The notes under the pieces: generated by a model
The model's database searches: none
Seen by the model: only the letters and a program-made list of their open reading frames with translations
What the model was told of the DNA's origin: nothing
Shown here: positions 31,330 to 64,000 of the stretch, piece by piece
Numbering within the stretch: the first letter of the stretch is position 1
Layout of the letters: each line of letters begins with the position of its first letter
Assembly: GCA_022482735.1 (NCBI GenBank)
Contig: JAKVOO010000001.1
Span: 55,699 to 119,698, forward strand
Direction: 5' to 3'
Source: Bacilli bacterium
Lineage (GTDB): Bacteria; Bacillota_I; Bacilli_A; RFN20; CAG-826
DNA: 64,000 nt
Made by a program: the position numbers and the translations under genes

Positions 31330-33987
31330 ATGAAAAAATCAAAAGCTAAAGCGGTTGGACTGAAATCAGTTTTAGTTACGACTAAAGGCGAAGTACTTGT
31401 TACTTCCTTTGGCAAAAAGGCGGAAGCCACGATTGAAAAGAAAATAATAAACAATAAGTTGGATAAAGAACATGACCCACCGACTTTTAGTCTTAATGTT
31501 GATAATTACGATTATAGATTAAAAAATAATACTGGAACTTTTTCGGCAGAAGTTGAAAATCCATTTCCTAGAAAGGAAAGCAATCGAAAAATTAGATGGA
31601 AGAATTGGCAAGAAGGGAAAAAGGAAAAGGGAGAGATTCCAACCATAAAAAGAACGATTGGAGATGATCAAATTTTTGCTAAAGCGGAGTTGGAAACAGA
31701 GTTTTTTGGCAAGCGGTATGAGGATAACATTCACATCCAAATTATTTACAATATATTGGATATTAGAAAAATACTTTCCCCCTACATCAATGATATTATT
31801 TATTCTATAAATAATTTAAATCGTGATTTAAATGTTGATGATGAAAAATCGGATATTTTTACGATTCGTTTTAGTGAAAATTATGAAAAGGCCAGCGATA
31901 GGATAAAGAATCTATTTGAAAAGTTTTATATTAATATTTCAAAAAATGGATACTATTCTAGTGCTTTTTATCATCAAGAAGGCGATAAATTTAAGTTTAA
32001 AAGTAAAATTGAGATATTTGATATTTTTAGACTATTAAGTGCGATTAGACAAGATGCCATGCATAGCTCAATAAGAAATAAAAATTGTGAATATAATGTT
32101 TTTTTTGATGAGAAAATGCTTCCTAATGATTTAAAAATTGTTCTTGATGGGTTATATTCACAAAAAGTTTATGAAACGAATAAAAGTTTTATCGAGTTAA
32201 ATAAGAGAGCAAACTTTTCTATTTTAGATAGCCTCTATTCTGATGAAAAAAACAAAGAAGCACTCTATCGCTTATTTTATGACTTTAATGTAAGGCAAGA
32301 GAATCTTAACTTAGGTTTTTCTATAAAGCGAATTCGCGAATGTTTACTTACACTAACCGATTATTCTGAGATAAAAAACAAGGACTTTGATAGCGAAAGA
32401 AGCAAATTGTATCATTTTTTTGATTTTGCTCTATATAAATACTATCTTAGCAACAATAAAATAGTTGATACTTTTGTAGAAAAGCTTCGCCAAAACATGA
32501 CCGATGAAGGAAAAGACAAACTCTACATTGAGCAAGCAAATGAAGTGGCTAATATTTTACATGATAAAGTTATTGATAGGCTTTTGCCGATGATGAATGG
32601 AGATGTAATAAAAAAATTAAATAGTGACTCGTTGAATACTAAAATTTCTGATCAAATAATTAATAGAATTAGAATAAATGATTCGGTTTCTTACTTTACT
32701 AAGTTGCTCTATTTTATGACTTTGTTTTTAGACGACAAAGAGACCAATGATATGCTTGCTAACATCACTAATAAGTTTGATAACATTATGTCCTTTATGC
32801 AGGTTTACAAGAATAAGGATAATGAATTTTTAGATGATGGCCTAAGCGATTTGCAAAATATGTATAAGGGACACAAACTAAATAATGGCAATCAGCAGAT
32901 TGTTTTCAGAGGTAAATATGCGCTTTTTAATAAAAATAATGAAATTGCCGATGAATTACGTATTTTGAAGTCAATTTCACGTTTTAAGCCGGCAGCAAAG
33001 ATAAGCCGTCAAATGATTCTTGATGCTGCTTATCTATTAGGATATAAGGAAGATGAGAACAGCGATCAAGTACTCACGAAGAAACTGAAGTTAGATGATG
33101 ATGGGAGTAAGGGGGCTAGAAATTTCTTAATCAATAATGTTGTTAAATCTAGACGATTTATCTATATCGCTCGGCATGTAAATCCTCGGAAAATTTGTGT
33201 AGTAGCGCAAAATGAACATGTGGTTAGGCTGGTACTAGAAAGACTTCCTCTTGAGCAGTTAACGCGTTACTATCAGGCGATTACTGGACTAGATTTAAAA
33301 GCACCACCTAAAATGATTGATAAACTGGTTCAAGAAATAAAATCAGTTAATCTAGAATCTTTTATCGATATCGACAATAAGGCATTATCTAGAGATAAGC
33401 AAATTATTAAAGAGCAAAAAAAGACCATAATCGGTTTATATTTAACAGTATTGTATCTTGTCTACAAGAATCTTGTTAATGTAAATTCGCGGTATGCAAT
33501 TGCCGTTTATACCCTAGAACGAGACTATGATATTAAATTTCCTAACGAAGAATTTGATTTTAAAAAACTAAATAATCAGTTGAAACTTTCAAATCTATTC
33601 ATTGAAAAAGGATATTTAAAAAAGAGACAAAGAGAAATATTGCAAAAAAATATAAGCGAATTAAGTAATGGAAGATTTTTTTCCTTATATAGGAATCAAA
33701 TCGCTCATTTGAACGCGATTAGGAATTTAGATAAATACATATCTAATGTTAAAGACATTAAAACATATTTTGGTTTATATCACTTTATCAGTCAGGCATT
33801 ACTTTGTGCTAAAATAGTAGAGTATTGCAAAGGCGACAATTCATTTCTTTTAAATCAAATTAAAGAATCTCAAAGAAGAGGTAAGTACTCAAAAAATGCT
33901 TTACACATTATTCATGTTCCCTTTGGATACAATCAAGCAAGATACAAGAATTTAAGTATTGAAGTCTTGTTTGATAAAAACAAATAA
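31330..33987 (+). CDS. cas13d: type VI-D CRISPR effector Cas13d (RNA-guided RNase, two HEPN domains), 885 aa
   Basis: Two R-x4-H HEPN motifs: RQDAMH (residues 240-245, nt 32047-32064) and RNQIAH (residues 788-793, nt 33691-33708). Blocks match my recollection of RfxCas13d/EsCas13d:
- N-terminal KSKAKAVGLKSVLV;
- IHIQIIYNILDIRKIL;
- NLGFSIKRIRE;
- FTKLLYFMTLFLDDKETNDMLANITNKFDNIMSF;
- ADELRILKS;
- ARNFLINNVVKSRRF;
- IIGLYLTVLYLVYKNLVNVNSRY;
- YFGLYHFISQ;
- VPFGYNQARYKNLSIEVLFDKN.
The gene is directly followed by a CRISPR array. Confidence 0.93.
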   Translation: MKKSKAKAVGLKSVLVTTKGEVLVTSFGKKAEATIEKKIINNKLDKEHDPPTFSLNVDNYDYRLKNNTGTFSAEVENPFPRKESNRKIRWKNWQEGKKEKGEIPTIKRTIGDDQIFAKAELETEFFGKRYEDNIHIQIIYNILDIRKILSPYINDIIYSINNLNRDLNVDDEKSDIFTIRFSENYEKASDRIKNLFEKFYINISKNGYYSSAFYHQEGDKFKFKSKIEIFDIFRLLSAIRQDAMHSSIRNKNCEYNVFFDEKMLPNDLKIVLDGLYSQKVYETNKSFIELNKRANFSILDSLYSDEKNKEALYRLFYDFNVRQENLNLGFSIKRIRECLLTLTDYSEIKNKDFDSERSKLYHFFDFALYKYYLSNNKIVDTFVEKLRQNMTDEGKDKLYIEQANEVANILHDKVIDRLLPMMNGDVIKKLNSDSLNTKISDQIINRIRINDSVSYFTKLLYFMTLFLDDKETNDMLANITNKFDNIMSFMQVYKNKDNEFLDDGLSDLQNMYKGHKLNNGNQQIVFRGKYALFNKNNEIADELRILKSISRFKPAAKISRQMILDAAYLLGYKEDENSDQVLTKKLKLDDDGSKGARNFLINNVVKSRRFIYIARHVNPRKICVVAQNEHVVRLVLERLPLEQLTRYYQAITGLDLKAPPKMIDKLVQEIKSVNLESFIDIDNKALSRDKQIIKEQKKTIIGLYLTVLYLVYKNLVNVNSRYAIAVYTLERDYDIKFPNEEFDFKKLNNQLKLSNLFIEKGYLKKRQREILQKNISELSNGRFFSLYRNQIAHLNAIRNLDKYISNVKDIKTYFGLYHFISQALLCAKIVEYCKGDNSFLLNQIKESQRRGKYSKNALHIIHVPFGYNQARYKNLSIEVLFDKNK

Positions 33988-33999
33988 CCTCATTTTGAG

Positions 34000-34299
34000 G
34001 TGCAACACCTGTGTAAAATTACATAGGTCTAAAACTGTAGACCATATTTTTTGTCAATGGCTTTGGTGCAACACCTGTGTAAAATTACATAGGTCTAAAA
34101 CGGCATTAGTTACTTCACTAGGAATATCGATGTGCAACACCTGTGTAAAATTACATAGGTCTAAAACTGGGCGATTAGTTTTTCGATTTTGCTTTCAGTG
34201 CAACACCTGTGTAAAATTACATAGGTCTAAAACTTGTGCATTTTTTATTTTTACAGAACTTGCGTGCAACACCTGTGTAAAATTACATAGGTCTAAAAC
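34000..34299 (+). CRISPR. CRISPR array: 5 identical 36-nt repeats and 4 unique 30-nt spacers (plus a possible 5th spacer and degenerate repeat at 34300-34364)
   Basis: The repeat GTGCAACACCTGTGTAAAATTACATAGGTCTAAAAC occurs at 34000, 34066, 34132, 34198 and 34264. It has an internal 7-bp hairpin (ACCTGTG/CATAGGT) and a 3' GGTCTAAAAC, like the recalled Cas13d repeat GAACTACACCCGTGCAAAAATGCAGGGGTCTAAAAC. Confidence 0.95.
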
Positions 34300-34559
34300 T
34301 CCGTACATAGAGCCACCAGTATGTATTAGAAAGAGTTTTGTTGAATGATTTATAGGTGTTAGTCAAATTTGTATGCAAAAAAATCAGCATAGTTTGTCAT
34401 GCTGAAATAAAAACTTAAATTATAAGTACTAGGCGACTAAATTTAGTTCTTTCAATAGAGTTAAATTATTTATTGCCTTTAACTAATTTTTCACCAAGAA
34501 AATGATGACAAATTAAGCCGAAAGTTAAACTATCTTTAAAAAATAGTTCGTCTAAGAAT

Positions 34560-34676: not shown

Positions 34677-35519
34677 TTATTTCTTCTTATGAATAAATTT
34701 ATCGTATCTTCTTCTTGTTTCAATTAAATCTATATGAACATATCGCTTTGTGGTTTCAACCGATGTATGGCCAAGAACACGAGAGATCATAATTAAATCA
34801 GCTCCATTAGAATAAAGATTTGTTGTAAGCGTATGCCTAAGCATATGAGGAGATAATTTTTCGATTTTAAAACGCTTTCTCATTCGACCAAATATACATT
34901 CAACATTATTAACTGTTAACTGTTTTCCACTAGGTGTGCTAAACAAGAACTTATTCATTTTCTTTTGCTTTTTAACATACTGCTTTAACAAACGTGAAGT
35001 TCCAACTGTGTAATAAACATATCGCTCATGTTTTGTCTTTGTATGAACTAAGTAAACATATCTTTCATCAAAATTAATATCTTCTATTCGTATGTTTATT
35101 ACTTCACTTAACCTTGCTCCAGTGTCAACAAAAATCATAATTAGAACTTTGCTTCGCAAAGTTATTTTTGGAAATACATTACTAAACAATTCAGTTTGTT
35201 GCTTCTGATCTAAATAACCAAATGTTACAAAAGGAATACGCATATTCCTTATATTCTCAACACCAGGATGAACATCACTAAAACGACATGCTCTTTTAAT
35301 AAATCCTACTCGATGATTTAAAGTATTAGGACTAATACCACGTTCCCGTTCGGAAAATATATAATTGGTAACAAATTCTTTTGTTAAAGCACTAGAATCA
35401 ATGTTACCAAAAGTATTAATCAAGGTCTTTTTAATTGATAAATAGAACTTATATGTTCCGGGAGAATTATATAGTTTTTGTTCAATCAAATATAAATCAA
35501 ACAATTTATTAAGTTTCAT
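34677..35519 (-). CDS. int: tyrosine recombinase / phage-type integrase (280 aa)
   Basis: Catalytic signature ARLSEV (Arg), HMLRHT (His-x-x-Arg) and LGHTSVETTKRYVH (His...Tyr). The gene lies next to the partial tRNA-Phe repeat. Confidence 0.85.
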   Translation of the reverse strand: MKLNKLFDLYLIEQKLYNSPGTYKFYLSIKKTLINTFGNIDSSALTKEFVTNYIFSERERGISPNTLNHRVGFIKRACRFSDVHPGVENIRNMRIPFVTFGYLDQKQQTELFSNVFPKITLRSKVLIMIFVDTGARLSEVINIRIEDINFDERYVYLVHTKTKHERYVYYTVGTSRLLKQYVKKQKKMNKFLFSTPSGKQLTVNNVECIFGRMRKRFKIEKLSPHMLRHTLTTNLYSNGADLIMISRVLGHTSVETTKRYVHIDLIETRRRYDKFIHKKK

Positions 35520-36927: not shown

Positions 36928-37027
36928 TCATGAGTAGAAATGATGCGTCAAGTATCGTCAGATGGGAGGTTGCTGACGAGCGAAAGAAATCTTTGATTTC
37001 TGCGGTATCATTTCGCCATCCGCATGG
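36928..37027 (+). promoter_or_regulatory. THF (tetrahydrofolate) riboswitch aptamer
   Basis: TCATGAGTAGAAATGATGCGTCAAG...GATGGGAGGTTGCTGACGAGCGAAAG...TGCGGTATCATTTCGCCATCCGCATGG follows the recalled folT-motif consensus (GAGUAG-AUGAU-GCG...UGGGA...ACGA-GCGA...GCGGU-AUCAU...AUCCGC). The P1 stem is tcatg/catgg. Downstream, cctccc (37052-37057) can sequester the SD gagagg (37071-37076). Confidence 0.75.
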
Positions 37028-37083
37028 ACTAATTTAGTTTTGAGCATTAAACCTCCCCTGATACAAGAATGAGAGGTATTATC

Positions 37084-37629
37084 ATGGGGAAATCAAAAAT
37101 TATTCACCGCATCACCCTTGATGCTATGCTAGCCGCCCTTTATGTTGTCCTTGCTTATGTTACCATACCTATAGGCAATATTCGTCTTACAATTGCTTCG
37201 CTACCCGTAGCCCTTGCCTGCCTTGCTTTGGGTATTGGAGATGGGGTATCCGTGGCATTTCTTGGCGAGTTTATTAATCAGCTATTGAAGTATGGATTTA
37301 CTTTAACAACTCCGATTTGGCTGATTCCACCGATAATTAGGGCGCTTGTCATCGGATTGTTTGCTCATTTTTATCGTAAACAAGGTCAAAGACTCGAAAA
37401 TCACTATGTAATTTATTTCGTGGCTTTCATAGTTGCCGCTATTGTTACAACCGGAGCAAATACTTTAGCGTTATATCTTGACGCATTAGTATTTGATTAT
37501 CCGTTTGCCTTTGTGCTGTATGAGACGATTATTCGGTTTTTGACGGGTATTTTGACCGCAGTTTTGCTGGCCATTATCGCGCAACCATTATCAAGAATAA
37601 TTAGAAATTACACCTTTAGTCCTTCTTAG
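37084..37629 (+). CDS. folT: ECF transporter S component, folate family
   Basis: A roughly 180-aa 6-TM protein directly downstream of a THF riboswitch. ATG 37084 lies 7 nt after the SD. Confidence 0.7.
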   Translation: MGKSKIIHRITLDAMLAALYVVLAYVTIPIGNIRLTIASLPVALACLALGIGDGVSVAFLGEFINQLLKYGFTLTTPIWLIPPIIRALVIGLFAHFYRKQGQRLENHYVIYFVAFIVAAIVTTGANTLALYLDALVFDYPFAFVLYETIIRFLTGILTAVLLAIIAQPLSRIIRNYTFSPS

Positions 37630-38490: not shown

Positions 38491-38776
38491 AGAATACTTT
38501 CTTATCGAAATCAGTGGTAATTCGTGTCCAACATGTGCCGTTCTTAAAAGCAATGTTGAAGAGGTCGTAAAAGAATTTCCGTTTATTACCTATTACTATG
38601 TTGATGATGAAATGACGAGTCGAACTTATATTGAACAGCTTAATTTACAGCATTTACCAGCTCTTGTTCTTATTTCTCACGGTGCAGTCCTCGGGATTGC
38701 TTATGGCGGTCAGCCATCAGAAATTATTAGGGAATGGTTGACAGCAAAAGTGGAAGGAGAAAAAGAAAATGGATAA
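38477..38776 (+). CDS. thioredoxin-fold protein embedded in the pfl operon
   Basis: CPTC motif. The gene overlaps the pflA stop by 14 nt and the pflB start by 8 nt. Confidence 0.6.
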
Positions 38777-40787
38777 TTATGAAGGTTGGAAGGGATTTGT
38801 TCCCGGACATTGGCAAAATGAGATTAATGTGCGCGATTTTATACAGAAAAACTATACTCCCTATGAGGGCGATGATGCTTTTTTAGTTGGAGTTAGTACA
38901 AATACACAAAAACTATGGCAAGAGGTTCTTAATTATAAAAAAGAAGAAAGTGCCAGAGGCGGAGTTTATGATGCTGACACTAAGGTCATATCAACAATTA
39001 CCTCACATGGTCCTGGATATATTGACAAGGAAATTGAAAAAGTGGTTGGCTTACAAACCGATAAGCCTTTTAAAAGATCACTTCAACCTTTTGGCGGTAT
39101 ACGGATGTCGGAAAGTGCGCTTAAGGCGTATGGATATACAATCGACCCTGAAGTGGAAACTGTTTTCTCACTTTATCGTAAGACTCATAATCAGGGAGTT
39201 TTTGATGCCTATAATGAAGAGATTAGAGCCGCGCGTCGAAGCGGGATTATTACCGGATTACCCGATGCATATGGTCGAGGAAGAATTATTGGCGACTATC
39301 GCCGGGTTGCCTTATATGGCATCGATCGTTTAATTGAGGCAAAAGAAGCCGATAAAAATTTAATCGTATCGCCATTTACTCCGGAGAAAATTCGTGATCG
39401 GGAGGAAATAACCGATCAGATTAATGCACTCAAAGCGATCAAGACGATGGCGCAAACATATGGAGTAGATATTTCTTTGCCGGCTAAAACAGGGCAAGAA
39501 GCTACTCAGTTTACTTATTTTGCTTACTTGGCGGCAATTAAAGAACAAAATGGCGCGGCTATGTCTTTAGGCCGGGTATCAACATTTCTTGATATTTATT
39601 TTGCTCGCGACTTACAAAACGGAAAAGTTACGGAAGTCGAAGTTCAGGAGATTATCGATCAATTTATTATGAAACTGCGGATGGTTCAATTCATGCGCAC
39701 TCCGGAATATAATGACTTATTTAGCGGTGATCCTACTTGGGTGACGGAATCAATCGGGGGAATGGGGGTCGATGGAAGGACACTGGTTACCAAAACTTCT
39801 TATCGTTTCTTGCAGACTCTAATCAATCTTGGACCCGCACCCGAACCCAATCTAACAGTCTTATGGTCGACAAATTTACCTAAGAATTTCAAGCGCTTTT
39901 GTGCCCGGATATCGATTGAGACTTCCTCAATTCAATATGAGAGCGATGATTTAATGCGTCCCGAAATGGGGGATGACTATGGTATTGCATGTTGTGTATC
40001 GGCCATGCGCATTGGAAAAGATATGCAATTTTTCGGCGCCCGCGCCAATCTAGCAAAAGCTTTGCTTTATGCGATTAATGGCGGCAAAGATGAGAAGACG
40101 GGAGCGCAAGTTGCTCCGCTATATGCTCCAGTAATAGGCGAGGTTTTGGATTTTGATGAAGTTATGCTTAAGTATGATCAAATGCTCGAATGGCTCGCTC
40201 GGGTCTATTGCGACGCGCTAAACATTATTCATTATATGCATGACAAGTATTCCTACGAGGCCGCTCAGATGGCTTTACATGATCGTGAAGTTCGCCGATT
40301 CTTTGCCACAGGAGTAGCTGGACTGTCGGTAGTAGCGGATTCGCTTTCGGCAATAAAATATGCGCGCGTATTTCCGATTAGAAATAGCGATAATATCACT
40401 ACTGATTTCCGTATTGAAGGCGATTTTCCAAAGTATGGAAATAATGATGATCGGGTTGATTTAATAGCCCAAGATCTCGTCCATCGCTTTATGGATAAGA
40501 TCCGCAAGCAGTTTCATTATCGCAATAGTGTCCCTTCAATGAGCATTTTGACGATTACTTCTAATGTTGTATATGGAAAGAAAACCGGAGCAACGCCCGA
40601 CGGAAGAGCGGCTGGACAGCCATTTGCTCCAGGGGCAAATCCGATGCACGGTCGGGATAGTAATGGGGCTTTAGCCGCTCTTCAATCGGTAGCAAAGCTT
40701 CCCTATGACGATGCCCGGGATGGCATATCGAATACATTTTCAATTATTCCCGGGGCACTGGGAAAACTGGATAAGGAGGAGAAATAA
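38769..40787 (+). CDS. pflB: pyruvate formate-lyase, catalytic core lacking the glycyl-radical C-terminal domain (672 aa)
   Basis: The N-terminus [25 protein letters not shown] and the active-site CCVS (GIACCVSAM) match PflB. The ORF ends at TAA 40785-40787, at the linker just before the glycyl-radical domain. Confidence 0.88.
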
Positions 40788-41021
40788 ATGAGTGATCGAA
40801 TTGATAATTTGGTTGATATGATTGATGGTTATGTTGAAAATGGTGGTCATCACCTTAACGTTAATGTTTTTAATCGCGAAACTTTACTCGATGCTCAAAA
40901 GCATCCAGAAAAATATCCGCAATTGACGATAAGAGTATCGGGCTATGCGGTAAATTTTCATAAGTTGACAAAAGAACAACAGGATGAAGTTATTGCCCGG
41001 ACAATGCATGATCATATGTAA
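40788..41021 (+). CDS. stand-alone glycyl-radical domain (GrcA/YfiD-like, 77 aa) corresponding to the PflB C-terminus
   Basis: [56 protein letters not shown] contains the RVSGYAV glycyl-radical motif. The ATG directly follows the TAA in the same frame as pflB, and the SD aaggagg (40773-40779) sits 8 nt upstream. Confidence 0.85.
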
Positions 41022-57723: not shown

Positions 57724-58806
57724 AATAAGTCCTCCATTTTTTAAAATATGCGAACAAATGCAAAGTGCCCAATTCGCATTAATTGTATTTATATACTTAT
57801 ATAATTAATTGAGTTATTTACCTAAATGAAATGTAATAAAACATACATTTTTGGTAATGGAAAAAAATTTATGAAAGTATAAAAATAACTTGCACATTAA
57901 AAGATATTATTAGCATACGACTACAATAAATACAGAGGTATAGCCAAATGTTTAAATATAAGTATGGCTTTCACGCATGCAAAAAGACGACTTATTGTAT
58001 ATTGATGCAGCAAACAATCTAGTTTTTTATTTTGTGTGGCAGACGGATAACAATCTCATTTGAATCAGCATAGGATTGGTTTTTACTTGCTTCATTCAAG
58101 TTAAAGTTTTTAAAATTAGTCTATACTTTTAATAGGTATTTATTTGTCGCCTCAATTTGCAAAGCGAAAAATATGTTGATGCATTATAAGGTTTCTTTGA
58201 TAAAAGACGCGTTTTTGTTATTAAGTTGTTTTGTTACTTCACTCCATGCGAGTTCAAAAGTTTTTGCTTAGGCTTTTTATAAAAACTATTTATCTTTAAG
58301 AGTTCAGGACCTTGTCAAGTAGTTGCCGTGAACAACTTCTAAATAAAAAAACGAGCCGTAATTGAAAAGTAAAATATCTCGTCAATAAGCAGTTTTTAAT
58401 AAAAAACGCCTTTTTTAAGGCGAAAATATTACAACTGCTGTAAAAATGTCGAAATGGGAAAAAAGTGAAAATTAAAACTTTTTTAGCTGAAAAGTTATTT
58501 TCTCGATTAATGTATTAACAAAATTTTCAATTGCATATTACTCTGTAATGAAAGGTTCAAATCAAAAATTACTGGCACATTTAAATATAGAATCTAAATA
58601 ATTCTTATAAGAATAAGATGCAAGATAACTTTTTTGTCTTATCAGAAAAATATTGATAAACTTCCTGATAGCAGAATTGAATAATACTTGTAGTAATTAA
58701 CAGATTATGACGATTAATTGTTTGGTCTATGAAATAAAAAAGTGGGAAATCAAATAAACTTGCCCCCACTTGATTTCATCGGCCCTAATTATTTTAAAAA
58801 ACTTTG

Positions 58807-60468
58807 CTACGAAGAGTGTACTGTTAGTTTGCCTATACAGATTCTTCCTCTATTATTGTTATTTGTACTGATCATTTGATTTACTTCAGCGTAAAATCTA
58901 AAACCGTAAACTGGTTTATTGAAATTAACGGTATACGTTGTTGGATTATCCCTGTTTCTTGGCAAATTTGTTGTATCAGAAAGAAGATCAAGCTTTCTGT
59001 TCCAATCCCCCTTTGCATTAATTTTATATGCATCTGTTTGTACTTGTAACTCAGCCTTACCAGTATTTTTATCTAACAACTCAACTTGAAATTCACGCCA
59101 ATGTGTCAATTCCACATTAATTTGAAAAACTGGAACTGAAAATTTGTATTCAATAAAAGCATACTTTACTCCATCTCTAATTGGCGATAGGACAACGTAT
59201 TGGTTTTGAATGAAACCAGTCCTAAATCTTCGTGTTCTTAATCCTATATGGTCTACATTAAGATGAGTGTTATATAAAACAGCAGTCCTTATGTCGGTCG
59301 GATAATAATCAATAAATTCATAATCGCTTTGATTTATAACTGTCTCTTCAGAAAACTGTTCTCCTGATGAACTAATAAACTTATTAATAGTACTGGAATA
59401 ATAATTGTTCGTTCGCTGGCGAGGTAAAGCATTCATATTTAGGCTATAGTAATCAGCAATTTTGATATTAAAATATTCATCTATGTTTCTCTTTGTTTGA
59501 TTTATATTCCATCCCATATTTCCATATAAAATGTCATTAACTTCATCGTAGCAATAAGCAACAACTAGATGCCCACTTGCGGCCTCGTTAGGGTCTTTAA
59601 TTCCATTGTTATTAGTATCATTATAGTGACTCCCGCCAACAAGAACTGGCTTTCCCGATTGAACTAGCGCAATTATTTCATTTCGAAGACGCGCTTTTTC
59701 TAGTGGGGTTTCTTGCTGAAGTTTGCTTGTATTAAGTGTAACAACGTTTGCAATTGCTTCGTTGTTAAGCAAATAATCATTTATAGTATTTACAACTATA
59801 TTGTAACTAACACCAATTCCATTCAAATAACTTTGATTACCAGAAGAATAATAATCATAAGTTTGTGATGGTTTAATTGATCCATTACTTAATGCAATAG
59901 AAAACAACTTACCAAGAAATGTATCATTATCTATTAATAATTTAACTTCTTGCATAATGCCAAATTCAAAAGCCCTTGGAAAATCACTTGAAGCAATAAA
60001 CTCATCTCTCGTCATATCATCAGGTTTTATTTTCTGAATAATTGCATTTTGTGAAGGCATAGTGTCATTCTGAACGCCTGGTGATGCGACAGTAAGATTT
60101 TGTAAACTAGCGCCGATAATTGCTACTGGAGAATCATACTTTTCATCAATTATTGCATCATTCCAACACGTATCATAAAAGGACAGCAACATCGAAATCC
60201 CTGTGTAACCGCATATCCCAAAAGAATTAGATGGCTTATTGGTCGCCAAATTTCGATAATAAGTTTCTAAAAAACTAGAGTCTTGTGAAAAATTAGGATC
60301 ACCCAAACCGGTGTCATCTGGGGCTGGTTCATAATACAAATCATTCTTTCTTTCGATCAAAGCCTGATTGGAAAAATCATCTGCAAAAACCTCATTTTTA
60401 ATATCTTTTTGTTGAGGTGTGTACATTCCTGTTAAAAGAATTGAGCCAATAAGTAAAAAAACATTCAT
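58807..60468 (-). CDS. secreted protein, possible papain-fold cysteine peptidase (streptopain/C10-like)
   Basis: Signal peptide present. The candidate catalytic Cys is in FGICGYTGISMLL. The candidate His context SGHLVVAYCYD...YGNMGW resembles the C10 H...NWGW block. This is a recollection-based, weak call. Confidence 0.4.
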   Translation of the reverse strand: MNVFLLIGSILLTGMYTPQQKDIKNEVFADDFSNQALIERKNDLYYEPAPDDTGLGDPNFSQDSSFLETYYRNLATNKPSNSFGICGYTGISMLLSFYDTCWNDAIIDEKYDSPVAIIGASLQNLTVASPGVQNDTMPSQNAIIQKIKPDDMTRDEFIASSDFPRAFEFGIMQEVKLLIDNDTFLGKLFSIALSNGSIKPSQTYDYYSSGNQSYLNGIGVSYNIVVNTINDYLLNNEAIANVVTLNTSKLQQETPLEKARLRNEIIALVQSGKPVLVGGSHYNDTNNNGIKDPNEAASGHLVVAYCYDEVNDILYGNMGWNINQTKRNIDEYFNIKIADYYSLNMNALPRQRTNNYYSSTINKFISSSGEQFSEETVINQSDYEFIDYYPTDIRTAVLYNTHLNVDHIGLRTRRFRTGFIQNQYVVLSPIRDGVKYAFIEYKFSVPVFQINVELTHWREFQVELLDKNTGKAELQVQTDAYKINAKGDWNRKLDLLSDTTNLPRNRDNPTTYTVNFNKPVYGFRFYAEVNQMISTNNNNRGRICIGKLTVHSS

Positions 60469-60896: not shown

Positions 60897-61625
60897 AAAC
60901 TATTATCCCCTTATATATACTTTTTACATTATTTACAAAAAAAATTGTTAAGTCAAGTTTGGGCAAATAATTCTTTTCCAATTGCATCTGAATATTCTTT
61001 AATAACAATAGTTATAATCACTGATCAATTAAGCGTAATTATTGTCTAGAATTACGGCACAAACGAAAAAATCGAACTATTGATGCACTAGTAATCGTAC
61101 TACTAATATTTGTTTTATTTGTAAATGTACATCACGTTTTTATAAATCATTTCTTCAAATGTTATCAGTGGATAAATGGCCTTTCTCATCATCAGTTCTC
61201 ATTTCATTTATCTTATTAGTTTGAGAAACCACTTCTATTTTTCGCACTGCTTGTGCAGTAGGTGTTTATACCAACTCAATATGGATTTTTACCGCATGAC
61301 TTATTTTCTATGGGTTAGCTGAGAGCATACAAATTAAAAAAAGAACCAATCGTCTTGTTCGGTTCTAATGTTCTAAATAGGACTAATGTTTGGAAGTTGA
61401 GTCTTGACTAGATTTAATAGTTACTGTTTATTTCTAAATGAACTTAAATGCTCTAGTGTCGACTGCACTCAGCAATGTGAGTTCCTGTTGCCTATTTGAA
61501 TAATAAAGGTTTAATATGTTTGTTTTGCTTCTACAATAAAATTATTAATACTTTTGTAGTTTTAATTCTAATATTTTCGATTCTTTATTTGCCATTAAAA
61601 GTGGTGATTATAGCGCAATTTTTGA

Positions 61626-61697
61626 TTTACACGATTTTTCCACTATTTGCATACCTATTACCCATAGAAGTATATATTTTTCCTGTTTGAGAGTTCA
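61626..61697. repeat. about 72-bp direct repeat, copy A, just downstream of the Pycsar effector gene
   Basis: tttacacgatttttccactatttgcatacctattacccatagaagtatatatttttcctgtttgagagttca aligns with 63155-63226, and the core gatttttccactatttgcata is identical in both copies. Confidence 0.8.
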
Positions 61698-61719
61698 TAT
61701 ACTTACGTCATTGAATTGA

Positions 61720-62235
61720 TTAAAGCCAAATAATTAAAATCGTTGTTATTAGAAAAAATAGCACCATTGGGATCATTAGAACGATGGATATCTTTAACAT
61801 TAAATGTTTAAATGAACAAATTCTTGCATTTTGATTGATCTGTTCAATACTTATTCCACAGTCACCATTATCTTTGAATATTATTATGTATTCATCACTT
61901 GTAATATCTTTTAAATCTTTATAATATGTCAGCGACTTGTGATCTGGACTTCCTTTTCTATTTTTAGGCAATAAAACTAAAACAGAAAAAGTCAATGCCG
62001 CTATAATTGAGACTAAAAAAACTAAAAATGAACTAAATATATATGGCTTAATCTGATCCGATTTACTTGAAATAACATCAATAACTGTAAATGATAGTGC
62101 AAATACAATACCAAGTATCGATACAATAATTGATGCTTTATTATCAAAGGAAGCAATTTGATTCAAAATAAGTTCTAATGACAATCCCTTTTGTTCTTTT
62201 AAACTTTCACTATTCACATTCATTTTTCCATCCAC
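61720..62235 (-). CDS. pycTM: Pycsar effector, transmembrane type (PycTM-like)
   Basis: Small protein with an N-terminal LILNQIASFDNKASIIVSILG block (the F-D/A-x-K-A motif of the Pycsar effector family as I recall it) and 3 TM helices. It lies directly downstream of a class III cyclase gene. The probable true start is ATG 62223, after the SD gaggtg. Confidence 0.7.
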   Translation of the reverse strand: MDGKMNVNSESLKEQKGLSLELILNQIASFDNKASIIVSILGIVFALSFTVIDVISSKSDQIKPYIFSSFLVFLVSIIAALTFSVLVLLPKNRKGSPDHKSLTYYKDLKDITSDEYIIIFKDNGDCGISIEQINQNARICSFKHLMLKISIVLMIPMVLFFLITTILIIWL

Positions 62236-62303
62236 CTCTCTTTAAAATTGCTCGATTATTTTATTTTACGTTCTTTTACCTAACCAAATTGTTATCCTTA
62301 TTC

Positions 62304-63077
62304 TTATTGGTCTGGCATACCATCATCAATCCACTTATCAAATTTTGTTTTTATGACATTACCATGATAAAACTCAACTTCTGTGGTGTCATATCCTCTT
62401 GAATCTTTTTCATATTCACTTTCAAACCATGTGGGAAAGTCTTTATAATTTTTCGTTTCTTGCTCTACTATATTTGTATAAACCGATGGGTCAATGGCAA
62501 TTGAACCAATTCCATTTCTGGAGGCTATATTAGATAAATTTGAAGCATTTACTACAGCTTTCCCAATAAAAACCAAATCATTGATAACGCCTTTTTTTCC
62601 AACTTTAATAACCAAATCTTTTGATAATCCAATGCCAATACCATAATCAATTTGTGGCATATTATTTTGTCTCAACACTTTATTAATCATTTTCTTGAGT
62701 GTGTTAATCTCAACAGCCATATTATATGCTTCCGCAACATTTTCCTTATTAGGAGATGCAAAAATAGCAAACACACAATCTCCTCTCACACCAATTCTTT
62801 TATACATTTGTGTGTCGTTCAAAATCTGAATTGTCTCAGATGAAAAAGTTCTTATGACCTTAGCAATAGTTTTATCATTTTTCCCTTTAAACAATTCAGT
62901 AGAATTTACTAAATCTACAAATATTGAAACAACCCAACCCTTAATTCCATTATTAAATGTTAAACTCCCATTAGTTTCACTTTCGATATCCGATATGCTG
63001 GTCTTATCTGCAACCTCAGTACTGGAGTTAATGATGTTGTAAATAACGTCCTTTCTTTGCTTGTAGTCGTATGCCAT
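62304..63077 (-). CDS. pycC: class III nucleotide cyclase, Pycsar cyclase-like (PycC)
   Basis: Cyclase-homology motifs: VVSIFVDLVNSTEL (first metal-binding Asp), RGDCVFAIF (second Asp), GIGIGLSKDLVIKVG and FIGKAVVNASNLSN. SD aaggtgg precedes ATG 63077. The gene pairs with a TM effector. Confidence 0.75.
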   Translation of the reverse strand: MAYDYKQRKDVIYNIINSSTEVADKTSISDIESETNGSLTFNNGIKGWVVSIFVDLVNSTELFKGKNDKTIAKVIRTFSSETIQILNDTQMYKRIGVRGDCVFAIFASPNKENVAEAYNMAVEINTLKKMINKVLRQNNMPQIDYGIGIGLSKDLVIKVGKKGVINDLVFIGKAVVNASNLSNIASRNGIGSIAIDPSVYTNIVEQETKNYKDFPTWFESEYEKDSRGYDTTEVEFYHGNVIKTKFDKWIDDGMPDQ

Positions 63078-63154
63078 TAAGATTCCACCTTTCTATTACT
63101 TAAAATATATTCGTTATGGTATAGATTTTTTTATCAAGGGTATCCGTTTCTCAC

Positions 63155-63226
63155 TTTACTTGATTTTTCCACTATTTGCATATCTATTATCCATAAAAGT
63201 ATATCATTTTCTGCTTTAAGCATTCA
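63155..63226. repeat. about 72-bp direct repeat, copy B, upstream of pycC
   Basis: See copy A. This copy lies 78-150 nt upstream of the pycC start on the coding (minus) strand. Confidence 0.8.
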
Positions 63227-63318
63227 AAAACCGCTATTACTTAATAGATCATCTGCAAACATGTTTTAAATATATATCTTCTTAATTGTTTAATAATAAT
63301 TTATTCTTGATTTTTATG

Positions 63319-63924
63319 TTAATGCCCTTTATTACCTACTTGCGCACCTTCCACAAATTTAATGTACTTTGGATTTTTAGAAAAATCTTGCCACTCGATA
63401 AGAAAATCTGCTTTTGAATCAATAAAGTTACTATTTTTACCAATGAAATTTTCTATCAATAAAACATCACTTCTATCACAGTATTCTATTTTATTAAAAA
63501 CATCAGAATGAGGATTAAATATAATTAGAGAAATATTAAACATTGTATTTTTAACTAGTTGTTCTATTTTGGTTGATTTAGTAACATTGTCCATATTTTC
63601 AAAGTCATTGATTAGTTTTTTTGATTCCTTAATAAACAAGCAAAAATTCTCATAAGTTACTTTTATATTGGAATAATCACCATGAGTAATTTTTTTCCAT
63701 TCAATCAAAAAAACACTCAGAAACATTATTAAAGATAATGCAAGAGGTAGTATGACTTTAAGAAGCCAATCATCGATGAAGCTCATATTTCCACTATTGC
63801 CTGAAGCAATTTTTACAATGAAAACAATTAATGAAGAAACGATATTAATCCCGATAGCAAACCCAAAAAGCCTAAATGTTGACCACAATTTTTCTTTCAT
63901 TAAGTCTTTTTGTTTTTCATTCAT
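63319..63924 (-). CDS. hypothetical membrane protein (201 aa)
   Basis: Two or three N-terminal TM helices and a soluble C-terminal domain. SD aaaggag. Family not recognised. Confidence 0.5.
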   Translation of the reverse strand: MNEKQKDLMKEKLWSTFRLFGFAIGINIVSSLIVFIVKIASGNSGNMSFIDDWLLKVILPLALSLIMFLSVFLIEWKKITHGDYSNIKVTYENFCLFIKESKKLINDFENMDNVTKSTKIEQLVKNTMFNISLIIFNPHSDVFNKIEYCDRSDVLLIENFIGKNSNFIDSKADFLIEWQDFSKNPKYIKFVEGAQVGNKGH

Positions 63925-64000
63925 TATTCAACAACTCCTTTCTTGCATGAGCATTTTTAGAACTTAAGTAATAGTCAACCAATGGTTGATCATATATAGC

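What the first reader, a model, noticed from the sequence alone, without database searches (positions are those of the whole stretch)
61720..63077. Two-gene Pycsar-type anti-phage cassette (nucleotide cyclase plus TM effector)
The 257-aa protein has the class III cyclase-homology motifs: F-x-D-L-x-x-S-T, then G-D-C-x-F-A-x-F, then the G-x-G-x-x-x-G and V-N-x-A-S-x-L blocks. It has no sensor or regulatory domains.

The gene 68 nt downstream encodes a roughly 170-aa protein. It has an N-terminal FDNKAS-containing segment and three TM helices. This matches the architecture I recall for Pycsar PycC plus PycTM systems, which signal through cCMP or cUMP and cause membrane-disrupting abortive infection.

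The cassette sits in an AT-rich accessory stretch with other orphan genes.
Basis: partly seen in the sequence, partly recalled or inferred. Interest (0 to 1): 0.75.

Follow-up and report, generated by a model that had tools for sequence, protein, structure and literature searches.

The report
Pycsar anti-phage cyclase and membrane effector
The two genes are a genuine but ordinary Pycsar-type anti-phage system (a small nucleotide cyclase plus a three-helix membrane effector), carried as a repeat-flanked mobile cassette in a strain-variable island of an uncultured small-genome Bacilli bacterium.

Summary
Two minus-strand ORFs sit at the stated coordinates: 62304-63077 (257 aa) and 61720-62235. 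The second more likely starts at ATG 62223, giving 167 aa.

- The 257-aa protein matches a PADLOC PycC model end to end (E 5e-70).
- Its subfamily profile significantly matches only the four solved PycC cyclases in the PDB (E 1e-5 or better), and its AlphaFold model is closest to the two solved Pycsar uridylate cyclases.
- Both catalytic Asp (D55, D100) are invariant.
- The partner passes Pfam PycTM (34 bits against a cut-off of 27.2) and PADLOC PycTM (E 6e-19), and it has three TM helices.
- The pairing recurs in 66 of 80 reference-genome loci, and dN/dS is about 0.1 for both genes.

The product cannot be read from sequence. The pocket F53/R98/F103 most resembles the cUMP-forming clade D enzyme, and the Glu used by cGMP-forming Pucsar cyclases is absent, so cUMP is my best guess.

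The new detail is in the surroundings. The pair is bracketed by two copies of a ~100-120-nt junction repeat that also separates other cargo genes in prophage-like elements carrying an 87-89% identical cassette. Conspecific strains lack the whole 4.9-kb island.

Verdict: a new member of a known kind, of low to moderate interest.

The parts
62304..63077 (-). pycC: 257-aa standalone Pycsar-type nucleotide cyclase. Catalytic Asp are D55 and D100; pocket residues are F53/R98/F103.
   Evidence: ORF. PADLOC PycC PDLC02368, E 5e-70. PDB profile hits are 8jsz, 7r65, 6yii and 8jsf only at E <= 1e-5. AF2 pLDDT 90.5, with Foldseek top hits 7r65 and 8jsz. Invariant residues. dN/dS 0.10-0.14.
63085..63090 (-). 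Shine-Dalgarno sequence AGGTGG, 7 nt before the pycC ATG
   Evidence: read directly from the sequence
61720..62223 (-). pycTM: 167-aa three-TM Pycsar effector. The mechanical ORF extends to GTG 62235 (171 aa).
   Evidence: Pfam PF18967, 34 bits > GA 27.2. PADLOC PycTM, E 6e-19. Homologues start at the ATG 62223 position. SD AGGTGG at 62237-62232. Three hydrophobic segments and helices. dN/dS 0.09-0.14.
63142..63261 (-). Junction repeat copy A, upstream of pycC. It contains the promoter-like TTGAAT-18 nt-TATACT with an extended -10 TG (63227 to 63198) and the 21-nt exact core TATGCAAATAGTGGAAAAATC (63182-63162).
   Evidence: the repeat finder D1. The core has 2 matches with 0 expected. Promoter scan. 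nhmmer 91 bits.
61613..61732 (-). Junction repeat copy B. It overlaps the last 13 nt of pycTM and runs downstream, with the same 21-nt core at 61653-61633.
   Evidence: nhmmer 101 bits
61171..61361 (-). Conserved non-coding piece at the right-hand edge of the strain-variable island. It is 73-80% identical to a non-coding segment of the prophage-like elements L009-L014. Function unknown.
   Evidence: blastn and tblastx. The breakpoint with empty-site strains is at about 61365. No Rfam hit and no fold signal.
61366..64000 (.). The part inside the window of a 4.9-kb strain-variable island. It continues about 2.3 kb beyond the window end. It holds the Pycsar cassette, a 201-aa two-TM orphan (63319-63924) and further small orphan ORFs.
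   Evidence: L109, L110 and L112 share the flanks at 98.6-99.3% identity but replace L001 6768-11712 with 1247 bp.

Best explanation
This is a two-gene Pycsar-type abortive-infection system.

Shown here:
- pycC encodes a standalone class III-fold cyclase with an intact two-Asp metal site, and it belongs to the PycC lineage.
- The gene 80 nt downstream encodes a PycTM-family effector with three TM helices.
- The pair is a conserved, selected unit.

Inferred from published work on the family:
- On phage infection the homodimeric cyclase converts an NTP into a 3',5'-cyclic mononucleotide.
- The signal binds the cytoplasmic face of PycTM. I suggest the site is the N-terminal helix carrying the invariant Q-I-x-x-F-D-x-K motif, together with the 50-residue TM2-TM3 loop carrying YYxD...EQ..N..IC..KH.
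- PycTM oligomerises and permeabilises the membrane, and the infected cell stops growing or dies before phage are released.

The most likely signal is cUMP, at about 0.55. The base pocket F53/R98/F103 parallels F60/K104/F109 of the cUMP-forming clade D AnPycC, and the enzyme is closest in sequence and fold to the two uridylate cyclases.

The cassette is transcribed from a promoter-like site inside an upstream junction repeat. It was exchanged as a ~1.65-kb repeat-flanked module with prophage or ICE-like elements.
For: Family assignment:
- PADLOC PycC E 5e-70 over the full length, and PycTM E 6e-19.
- Pfam PycTM above its gathering score.
- The subfamily profile hits only PycC structures in the PDB: 8jsz 2e-13, 7r65 6e-11, 6yii 2e-6, 8jsf 1e-5.
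- AF2 model pLDDT 90.5. It has the N-terminal helix called a PycC hallmark and a C-terminal beta-hairpin. The Foldseek top hits are 7r65 and 8jsz.

Conservation and selection:
- F53, D55, G96, R98 and D100 are invariant in 47 homologues.
- A PycTM gene lies next to the cyclase in 66 of 80 reference-genome loci. It also lies next to it in every closer relative examined.
- dN/dS is 0.09-0.14 for both genes.

Published mechanism and determinants: PMC11224242 and bioRxiv 10.64898/2026.08.12.744502.

Mobility:
- DNA homology to L009-L011 runs from one repeat to the other.
- Nothing else is shared with those elements except a 170-nt non-coding piece.
- Conspecific empty-site strains exist.
Against: - There is no experimental data for this locus or for any close relative. 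The product, trigger and phenotype are inferred.
- The Pfam Guanylate_cyc hit is just below its gathering score (20.1 against 21.9).
- The canonical class III transition-state Asn position (N177) is variable in the subfamily.
- The pocket is not identical to that of any characterised enzyme (R98 rather than K104), and the clade D zinc ribbon is absent (only one Cys).
- PycTM has no solved homologue in the PDB copy by sequence or fold, so the ligand site is conjecture.
- The immediate neighbours are orphan and surface-protein genes rather than known defence genes. The nearest recognised defence locus, Cas13d, is 27 kb away.
Confidence: 0.85

Rival explanations
1. The architecture and abortive-infection logic are the same, but the signal is a purine cyclic nucleotide. 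That would be cGMP as in the recently described Pucsar sister clade, or cAMP, and not a pyrimidine.
For: The 2026 preprint shows that standalone cyclases paired with 3TM pJV1-spdB3-type effectors can make cGMP, and that specificity shifts with a few pocket residues. The window's pocket (F/R/F) matches no characterised enzyme exactly. I could not place the protein in that paper's tree, because no supplement is held.
Against: The position 4 residues before the second catalytic Asp is Glu118 in PfPucC, where it reads guanine. Here it is an invariant Gly (G96). The best sequence and fold matches are uridylate cyclases. According to the preprint, the large standalone-cyclase + 3TM subclade (Pycsar-1) is modelled to prefer UTP.
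Confidence: 0.12
2. The system is the same but the product is cCMP, as in clade E PycC enzymes that also pair with TM effectors.
For: Clades C and E both use TM effectors (PMC13069673). F53 corresponds to F100 of the cCMP-forming EaPycC.
Against: The EaPycC determinants R142 and Q144 correspond to G96 and R98 here. EaPycC is the weakest of the four PycC PDB matches (E 1e-5). Published work states that only clade E makes cCMP.
Confidence: 0.12
3. The cassette is a decaying, non-functional remnant of a mobile element, left behind in a chromosomal hotspot.
For: The island has no integrase. It holds orphan ORFs, including two that look like fragments of one phage protein. The gene or genes that follow the cassette in the donor-like elements are missing.
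Against: Both ORFs are intact with strong SD sequences. Catalytic and family-invariant residues are all present. dN/dS is 0.09-0.14. The protein is 100% identical on 9 contigs from several samples.
Confidence: 0.05
4. This is a housekeeping cAMP or cGMP signalling cyclase that merely sits next to an unrelated small membrane protein.
For: The fold is class III, and sources annotate homologues generically as 'adenylate cyclase'. Generic class III cyclases follow in the Foldseek list.
Against: No housekeeping cyclase in the PDB is hit by the subfamily profile at E <= 1. The partner is a specific PycTM-family protein and is syntenic in 66 of 80 loci. The pair moves on prophage-like elements, plasmids and viral contigs. 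Conspecific strains lack it entirely.
Confidence: 0.02

Closest known systems
Pycsar PycC + PycTM systems (Tal et al. 2021, Cell 184:5728; described in PMC11224242)
   Same: A two-gene operon with a single-domain class III-fold cyclase carrying an N-terminal helix extension and two catalytic Asp, next to a small membrane effector of Pfam PF18967. It is mobile and patchily distributed.
   Different: Untested. The host is an uncultured small-genome Bacilli lineage. The pocket residue set (F/R/F) matches no characterised enzyme exactly.
Anabaena AnPycsar: clade D AnPycC (PDB 8jsz) + AnPycTM, a cUMP system
   Same: The best PDB sequence match (profile E 2e-13) and the second-best fold match. The pocket positions correspond: F60/K104/F109 there, F53/R98/F103 here. 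It also has a TM effector.
   Different: The clade-defining C-terminal zinc ribbon (C221/C223/C260/H263) is absent, since the window protein has a single Cys. It has Arg in place of Lys104. Identity is about 17-20%.
Burkholderia cepacia BcPycC (PDB 7r65), clade B, cUMP
   Same: The best fold match (Foldseek E 1.7e-12). Similar size, with an N-terminal helix and a simple C-terminal beta-hairpin.
   Different: The pocket Y50/D94/R97 corresponds to F53/R98/C101 here.
PucsarTM (EcPucC + EcPucTM; bioRxiv 10.64898/2026.08.12.744502)
   Same: A standalone cyclase plus a 3-TM pJV1-spdB3-type effector, with an abortive-infection phenotype. The effector is reported to form a hexameric channel-like assembly, which is a plausible model for this PycTM.
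   Different: Pucsar cyclases make cGMP. The guanine-reading Glu at -4 from the second Asp is an invariant Gly here. No beta-sheet appendage is predicted in the 167-aa effector.
CBASS systems with 2TM effectors
   Same: The effector gives weaker hits to PADLOC CBASS '2TM' effector models (E 4e-9 and weaker). The logic is the same: a nucleotide signal activates a membrane effector.
   Different: There is no CD-NTase. The signal generator is a class III-type cyclase, and the PycTM models score much better.
Repeat-delimited cargo cassettes in phages and integrons (e.g. T4 PeSL-flanked cassettes, integron attC). Recalled from general knowledge, not tested.
   Same: A short conserved element recurs at each junction between accessory genes, and the same element flanks the Pycsar pair on both sides.
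   Different: No integrase is associated and no stem-loop signal was found. The element is about 100-120 nt and carries a promoter-like site. The mechanism of exchange is unknown.

Membership tests
Pycsar | PycC: class III cyclase fold with two metal-binding Asp | tested here: met
   D55 and D100 are invariant in 47 homologues. AF2 model pLDDT 90.5, with class III and PycC fold matches.
Pycsar | The cyclase belongs to the PycC lineage and not to housekeeping cyclases | tested here: met
   12 PADLOC PycC models hit, the best at E 5e-70. The profile against the PDB hits only 8jsz, 7r65, 6yii and 8jsf at E <= 1e-5.
Pycsar | N-terminal alpha-helix extension, described as a PycC hallmark (PMC11224242) | tested here: met
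   The predicted helix spans residues 5-17 ahead of the core, with near-invariant Y3, K9 and I15. This is a prediction and not a solved structure.
Pycsar | An adjacent effector gene with a TM (PycTM) or TIR domain | tested here: met
   Pfam PF18967, 34 bits > 27.2. PADLOC PycTM, E 6e-19. Three TM segments.
Pycsar | The cyclase-effector pairing is conserved across genomes | tested here: met
   66 of 80 reference-genome loci have an adjacent PycTM (27 cyclase-first, 22 effector-first, 17 on both sides). The closer relatives also have one.
Pycsar | The product is cCMP or cUMP | not testable with these tools
   Only pocket-residue analogy is available: F53/R98/F103 against AnPycC F60/K104/F109.
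Pycsar | Confers phage resistance by abortive infection | not testable with these tools
Indirect support: it lies in a strain-variable island and on mobile elements.
Pycsar | Located in a defence island | tested here: inconclusive
   The immediate neighbours have no PADLOC hits, and Cas13d is 27 kb away. Relatives sit beside HNH, FRG and DUF5677 genes (L017) or Z1 and DUF4420 genes (L009).
PycC clade A | Two consecutive cyclase domains | tested here: not met
   A single domain of 257 aa.
PycC clade B (BcPycC type) | Pocket Y50/D94/R97 | tested here: not met
   The equivalent residues are F53/R98/C101.
PycC clade D (AnPycC type) | C-terminal zinc ribbon (3 Cys + His) | tested here: not met
   Only one Cys (C101) and one His (H238) in the whole protein.
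PycC clade D (AnPycC type) | Pocket F60/K104/F109 | tested here: inconclusive
   F53/R98/F103 is the same at two of three positions, with a conservative K-to-R change at the third. F53 and R98 are invariant, and position 103 is F or Y, in the subfamily.
PycC clade E (cCMP) | Pocket F100/R142/Q144 | tested here: not met
   The equivalent residues are F53/G96/R98.
Pucsar (cGMP) | Guanine-reading Glu 4 residues before the second catalytic Asp (PfPucC E118), plus K195 | tested here: not met
   The -4 position is an invariant Gly96.
CBASS | A CD-NTase signal synthase in the operon | tested here: not met
   No CD-NTase hit among the cassette genes or their neighbours.
Housekeeping class III adenylate/guanylate cyclase | Groups with physiological cyclases, usually with sensor or regulatory domains | tested here: not met
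   No extra domains. No housekeeping cyclase is hit by the profile in the PDB at E <= 1.

The most novel reading that the evidence does not exclude
The Pycsar pair may be one unit of a repeat-delimited cargo array. A ~100-120-nt junction element bearing a promoter-like site follows each accessory gene in a family of prophage or ICE-like elements, with at least 5 copies per element, all on the coding strand. The same element brackets the Pycsar pair. It might act as the recombination handle that shuttles single defence cassettes between those elements and a chromosomal hotspot in small-genome Bacilli. That would be an integrase-independent cassette-exchange system for defence genes.
Probability: 0.3. 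Interest if true: 0.5.

Novelty: new member of a known kind. Interest (0 to 1): 0.25.

Why it matters
The locus itself adds one more Pycsar system. Standard tools (PADLOC, Pfam) recognise it, and NCBI already annotates close PycTM relatives as 'Pycsar system effector family protein'.

Three things are mildly useful:
- It documents Pycsar in an uncultured ~1.5-Mb Bacilli (Acholeplasma-like) lineage alongside a type VI-D Cas13d locus.
- The subfamily has an invariant F/R/(F,Y) pocket that no characterised PycC shares exactly. A single LC-MS experiment would extend the specificity map at a time when the family has just been shown to include cGMP makers.
- The cassette comes with natural occupied and empty alleles and with a recurring junction repeat. 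This gives a concrete, testable example of how a small defence module moves between prophage-like elements and chromosomes.

Tried and rejected
1. A second, degraded cyclase copy, suggested by inverted repeat I1 (57904-57926 against the pycC start). tblastn of 47 PycC and 22 PycTM sequences against the whole window found nothing outside the cassette (best E 0.13). I treat it as a chance match.
2. A structured RNA or riboswitch in the 115-nt leader, or in the conserved 170-nt non-coding piece. There was no Rfam hit at E <= 1, and the fold z-scores were +0.89 and +0.46.
3. A pseudogene in the 0.8-kb gap 60897-61719. tblastx hits fall in several frames and only over the two conserved non-coding pieces.
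4. The 201-aa two-TM upstream gene as a third component. It is absent from all diverged cassette copies and has no PADLOC hit.
5. The 21-nt repeat core in 185,579 reference genomes: no exact match.
6. Direct subclade placement against the Pucsar and Pycsar-1 to -4 tree. No supplement is held for the preprint, and the founding Tal et al. paper (PMC9070634) is not held.
7. Close relatives in IMG/VR with the single protein: none. With the alignment, 8 distant ones were found.
8. A solved structure for PycTM: none by sequence or fold.
9. A whole prophage in the window. Only the 1.65-kb module and the 170-nt piece are shared with the donor-like elements.
Full report
**Observation.** Reading the DNA shows a strong Shine-Dalgarno sequence (AGGTGG, 63090-63085) 7 nt before the cyclase ATG. 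The listed GTG of the second ORF lies inside another AGGTGG (62237-62232), and an ATG follows 8 nt later at 62223. Nearly all 21 aligned homologues of the second protein begin at that ATG position (MN...). The product is therefore most likely 167 aa and the gap 80 nt.

The other two are approximations: GIGIG in place of G-x-G-x-x-x-G, and VNASNL in place of V-N-x-A-S-x-L. FDNKAS and three hydrophobic segments are present in the small protein. The region is AT-rich, with GC 0.27-0.32 over 57-64 kb against 0.36-0.45 for most of the window.

**Family assignment of the cyclase.**
- It matches 12 PADLOC PycC models, the best end to end (PDLC02368, E 5e-70, residues 2-254 on 3-234/234).
- Pfam's general Guanylate_cyc model is hit only just below its gathering score (20.1 against 21.9 bits).
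- A database search returned 89 homologues. An alignment of 47 of them (A1) has F53, D55, F78, G96, R98, D100, G146-I147-G148 and A178 invariant.
- Searched as a profile against all PDB sequences, the subfamily significantly matches only the four solved PycC enzymes: AnPycC 8jsz (clade D, 2e-13), BcPycC 7r65 (clade B, 6e-11), PaPycC 6yii (clade A, 2e-6) and EaPycC 8jsf (clade E, 1e-5). The only other rows at E <= 1 are two weak unrelated proteins (E 0.04 and 0.3), and no housekeeping class III cyclase appears.
- An AlphaFold2 model is confident (pLDDT 90.5, pTM 0.87). It shows an N-terminal helix (5-17) before the core and a C-terminal beta-hairpin. Hou et al. describe these features as typical of PycC and BcPycC (PMC11224242).
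- Foldseek ranks BcPycC (E 1.7e-12) and AnPycC (9.4e-12) first, ahead of generic class III cyclases.

**Family assignment of the effector.**
- The small protein exceeds the Pfam PF18967 'Pycsar effector protein' gathering score (34 against 27.2 bits).
- It matches PADLOC PycTM models (E 6e-19 and 6.5e-18), with weaker hits to CBASS '2TM' effector models.
- Thirty homologues were found, all carrying PF18967. One is 70% identical and comes from Alteracholeplasma palmae J233, and one MAG protein is named 'Pycsar system effector family protein' by NCBI.
- The alignment (A2) has an invariant Q-I-x-x-F-D-x-K motif just before TM1. It also has invariant P86, Y100-Y101-x-D103, and Q128/N132/I135-C136 in and after the TM2-TM3 loop.
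- The AlphaFold2 model (pLDDT 79) consists of three long helices (2-52, 59-84, 126-166) with two short helices between them.
- Nothing in the PDB resembles it by sequence or fold.
- The three-TM layout matches the '3TM pJV1-spdB3 family' that a 2026 preprint names as the dominant effector of Pycsar-type cyclases. That preprint solved one example as a hexameric channel-like assembly (bioRxiv 10.64898/2026.08.12.744502).
- By the positive-inside rule, the N-terminal helix and the Lys/Arg-rich 50-residue loop both face the cytoplasm. I therefore propose them as the ligand-binding face. This is inference only.

**The pair is a unit.** The eight contigs fetched with the identical cyclase are the same strain population (>99.7% nucleotide identity) and do not count as independent evidence. 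More distant copies do.
- At 87-89% protein identity, the cyclase is followed by a 167-aa PycTM inside prophage or ICE-like elements. These carry serine recombinases, an rve transposase, Phage_rep_org_N, ParB-methyltransferase, SAM synthetase and TerL.
- At 53% identity, it is followed by a PycTM in an Acholeplasmataceae MAG, next to HNH, FRG and DUF5677 genes.
- A scan of one genome per species found 155 species with this subfamily. Most are Bacillota and Acholeplasmatales, with scattered hits elsewhere.
- In the 80 loci kept, 66 have a PycTM next to the cyclase (27 cyclase-first, 22 effector-first, 17 on both sides). Twenty-six loci carry more than one cyclase ORF, as the preprint notes for its Pycsar-1 subclade.
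- The subfamily is also on 37 plasmids, one deposited phage (27% identity) and 8 IMG/VR contigs.
- dN/dS between the window and the diverged cassettes is 0.095-0.143 for pycC and 0.088-0.141 for pycTM. Both genes are therefore under purifying selection.

**Which nucleotide?** This cannot be settled from sequence. The published determinants are:
- BcPycC (cUMP): Y50/D94/R97.
- AnPycC (cUMP): F60/K104/F109, plus a clade-specific zinc ribbon.
- EaPycC (cCMP): F100/R142/Q144 (PMC11224242).
- PfPucC (cGMP): E118, four residues before the second catalytic Asp, plus K195.

Using the HMMER alignments, the window protein has F53, G96 (-4), R98 (-2), D100, C101 and F103. It therefore matches the clade D pocket pattern, with Arg in place of Lys. 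It lacks the clade D zinc ribbon, having only one Cys. It lacks the clade E Arg and Gln, and it has an invariant Gly where Pucsar has Glu. Published statements say that only clade E makes cCMP and that clades C and E use TM effectors (PMC13069673). On that basis I rate cUMP at about 0.55, cCMP at about 0.12 and a purine at about 0.12. The canonical class III Asn position (N177) is variable in this subfamily, while K158 and R/K187 are conserved. How the transition state is stabilised is not clear from sequence.

**What surrounds the cassette.** A direct repeat brackets the two genes: 61626-61702 and 63155-63231, 81% identical and 1529 nt apart. It has a 21-nt exact core that occurs nowhere else in the window (0 expected by chance). 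The upstream copy contains the best-placed promoter-like site, TTGAAT-18 nt-TATACT with an extended -10 TG (63227 to 63198). The downstream copy overlaps the last 13 nt of pycTM.

DNA homology to the prophage-like loci L009-L011 (87% identity) runs from one repeat to the other (window 61646-63252), and both copies are present there too. A profile of the element finds it five times in L009 and L012, and also in L014. Every copy is on the coding strand and lies in an intergenic gap directly after one cargo gene and before the next. The cargo includes DUF4420, two orphans, an aminoglycoside-resistance-like gene, PycC-PycTM, DUF6560, a Trypsin_2 gene and DUF4160. The Pycsar pair is therefore one cassette in a repeat-delimited cargo array.

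Apart from this 1.65-kb module, the window shares only a ~170-nt non-coding piece (61171-61361) with those elements. It has no Rfam match and no fold signal.

**Empty-site strains.** Contigs L109, L110 and L112 encode the identical 135-aa flanking protein and match the flanks at 98.6-99.3% identity. Where the window's strain has a 4,945-bp segment (L001 6768-11712), they have 1,247 bp of unrelated sequence. In window coordinates that segment starts at about 61366 and runs about 2.3 kb past the window end. The replacement sequence holds a 113-aa ORF and a single copy of the junction element. The right-hand breakpoint coincides with the start of the conserved 170-nt piece.

The cassette therefore sits in a strain-variable hotspot populated by fragments of one mobile-element family. 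Neither the window nor the 10 kb beyond it has an integrase near the cassette. How the exchange happens is not shown. It could be homologous recombination at the junction repeats and the 170-nt piece, or something site-specific.

**Host.** The window belongs to a 1.48-Mb contig. At >90% identity, its proteins cluster only with 'Bacilli bacterium' MAG proteins. The closest named relatives of the cassette proteins are Acholeplasmataceae and Alteracholeplasma. Because the cassette is mobile, this is only weak evidence for host taxonomy.

**Verdict.** This is a bona fide Pycsar-type PycC + 3TM PycTM system that standard tools recognise. It is a new member of a known kind, not a new kind. Product identity, trigger and phenotype remain untested. 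The most interesting residue is the junction-repeat cassette structure together with the natural occupied and empty alleles. I score interest at 0.25.

Noticed in passing
window 31330-34300: A full-length type VI-D CRISPR effector Cas13d (885 aa; NCBIfam NF038189 E 2e-193; PADLOC E 2e-203). It is followed directly by a small CRISPR array (34000-34300, 36-nt repeat GTGCAACACCTGTGTAAAATTACATAGGTCTAAAAC, period 66, about 4.6 copies). The mechanical 'ORF' 33959-34348 is just the array translated. No cas1 or cas2 was seen nearby. The locus lies in an AT-rich stretch (31-37 kb, GC 0.28-0.32).
   Followed up: partly
window 34677-35519 (-): A 280-aa tyrosine recombinase (Pfam Phage_integrase, E 3e-36) lies immediately after the Cas13d array, in the same AT-rich stretch. 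This may mark that locus as an acquired island.
   Followed up: no
window 36928-37027 (+): A THF riboswitch (Rfam RF01831, 65 bits) lies just upstream of a 186-aa multi-TM protein (37069-37629), presumably a folate-family transporter component.
   Followed up: no
window 38769-41021 (+): Pyruvate formate-lyase is split. The 672-aa body ends in TAA at 40785-40787. A 77-aa ORF carrying the glycyl-radical motif (RVSGYAV) starts at the very next base (ATG 40788), in the same frame, with its own AAGGAGG just upstream. This is either a genuine two-piece PFL or a nonsense mutation rescued by reinitiation.
   Followed up: partly
window 61171-61361 (and L009 10582-10748, L012 10098-10255, L014 14672-14843): A ~170-nt non-coding segment, 73-80% identical between the chromosome and the prophage-like elements. 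It sits exactly at the right-hand breakpoint of the strain-variable island. It has no Rfam hit and no fold signal, and its function is unknown.
   Followed up: partly
window ~61086 (L001 11993-12142; L003 5302-5462): A 150-160-nt insertion/deletion polymorphism between otherwise near-identical strains, in the non-coding region upstream of the 135-aa lipoprotein-like gene.
   Followed up: no
window 63319-63924 (-) and L001 8661-9161: A 201-aa orphan with two N-terminal TM helices overlaps a 166-aa orphan upstream by 8 nt, within the same variable island as the Pycsar cassette. Neither has a Pfam or PADLOC hit, and neither is conserved next to diverged cassettes. This could be another accessory or defence pair.
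   Followed up: partly
L001 7780-8483 (beyond the window end): Adjacent 84-aa and 148-aa ORFs both give weak hits to one PHROG (phrog_15126), at positions 92-138 and 180-315 of 368. They look like two fragments of a broken phage gene inside the island.
   Followed up: no
window 58807-60468 (-); L003 6078-7117; L116: A 553-aa secreted protein with weak C39-like and Mycoplasma-type cysteine peptidase similarity is intact in the window. In some conspecific contigs it is called as two shorter pieces (66 aa plus a remainder). It may be a variable or phase-variable surface gene.
   Followed up: no
window 57724-58806: About 1.1 kb without any ORF of 60 aa or more on either strand, between the 200-aa and 553-aa genes. 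It has no Rfam family at gathering score.
   Followed up: no
L015 5377-9391: In a relative (cyclase 55% identical), the cyclase follows a 558-aa HD-domain protein with a 9-nt gap. It is followed by a 176-aa protein with no Pfam hit, and a divergent 212-aa PycTM sits on the opposite strand upstream. This may be a variant architecture.
   Followed up: no
L021-L098 (reference-genome loci): Twenty-six of 80 loci of this PycC subfamily carry two or three cyclase ORFs around one PycTM. This agrees with the multi-cyclase Pycsar-1 loci mentioned in the 2026 preprint.
   Followed up: partly
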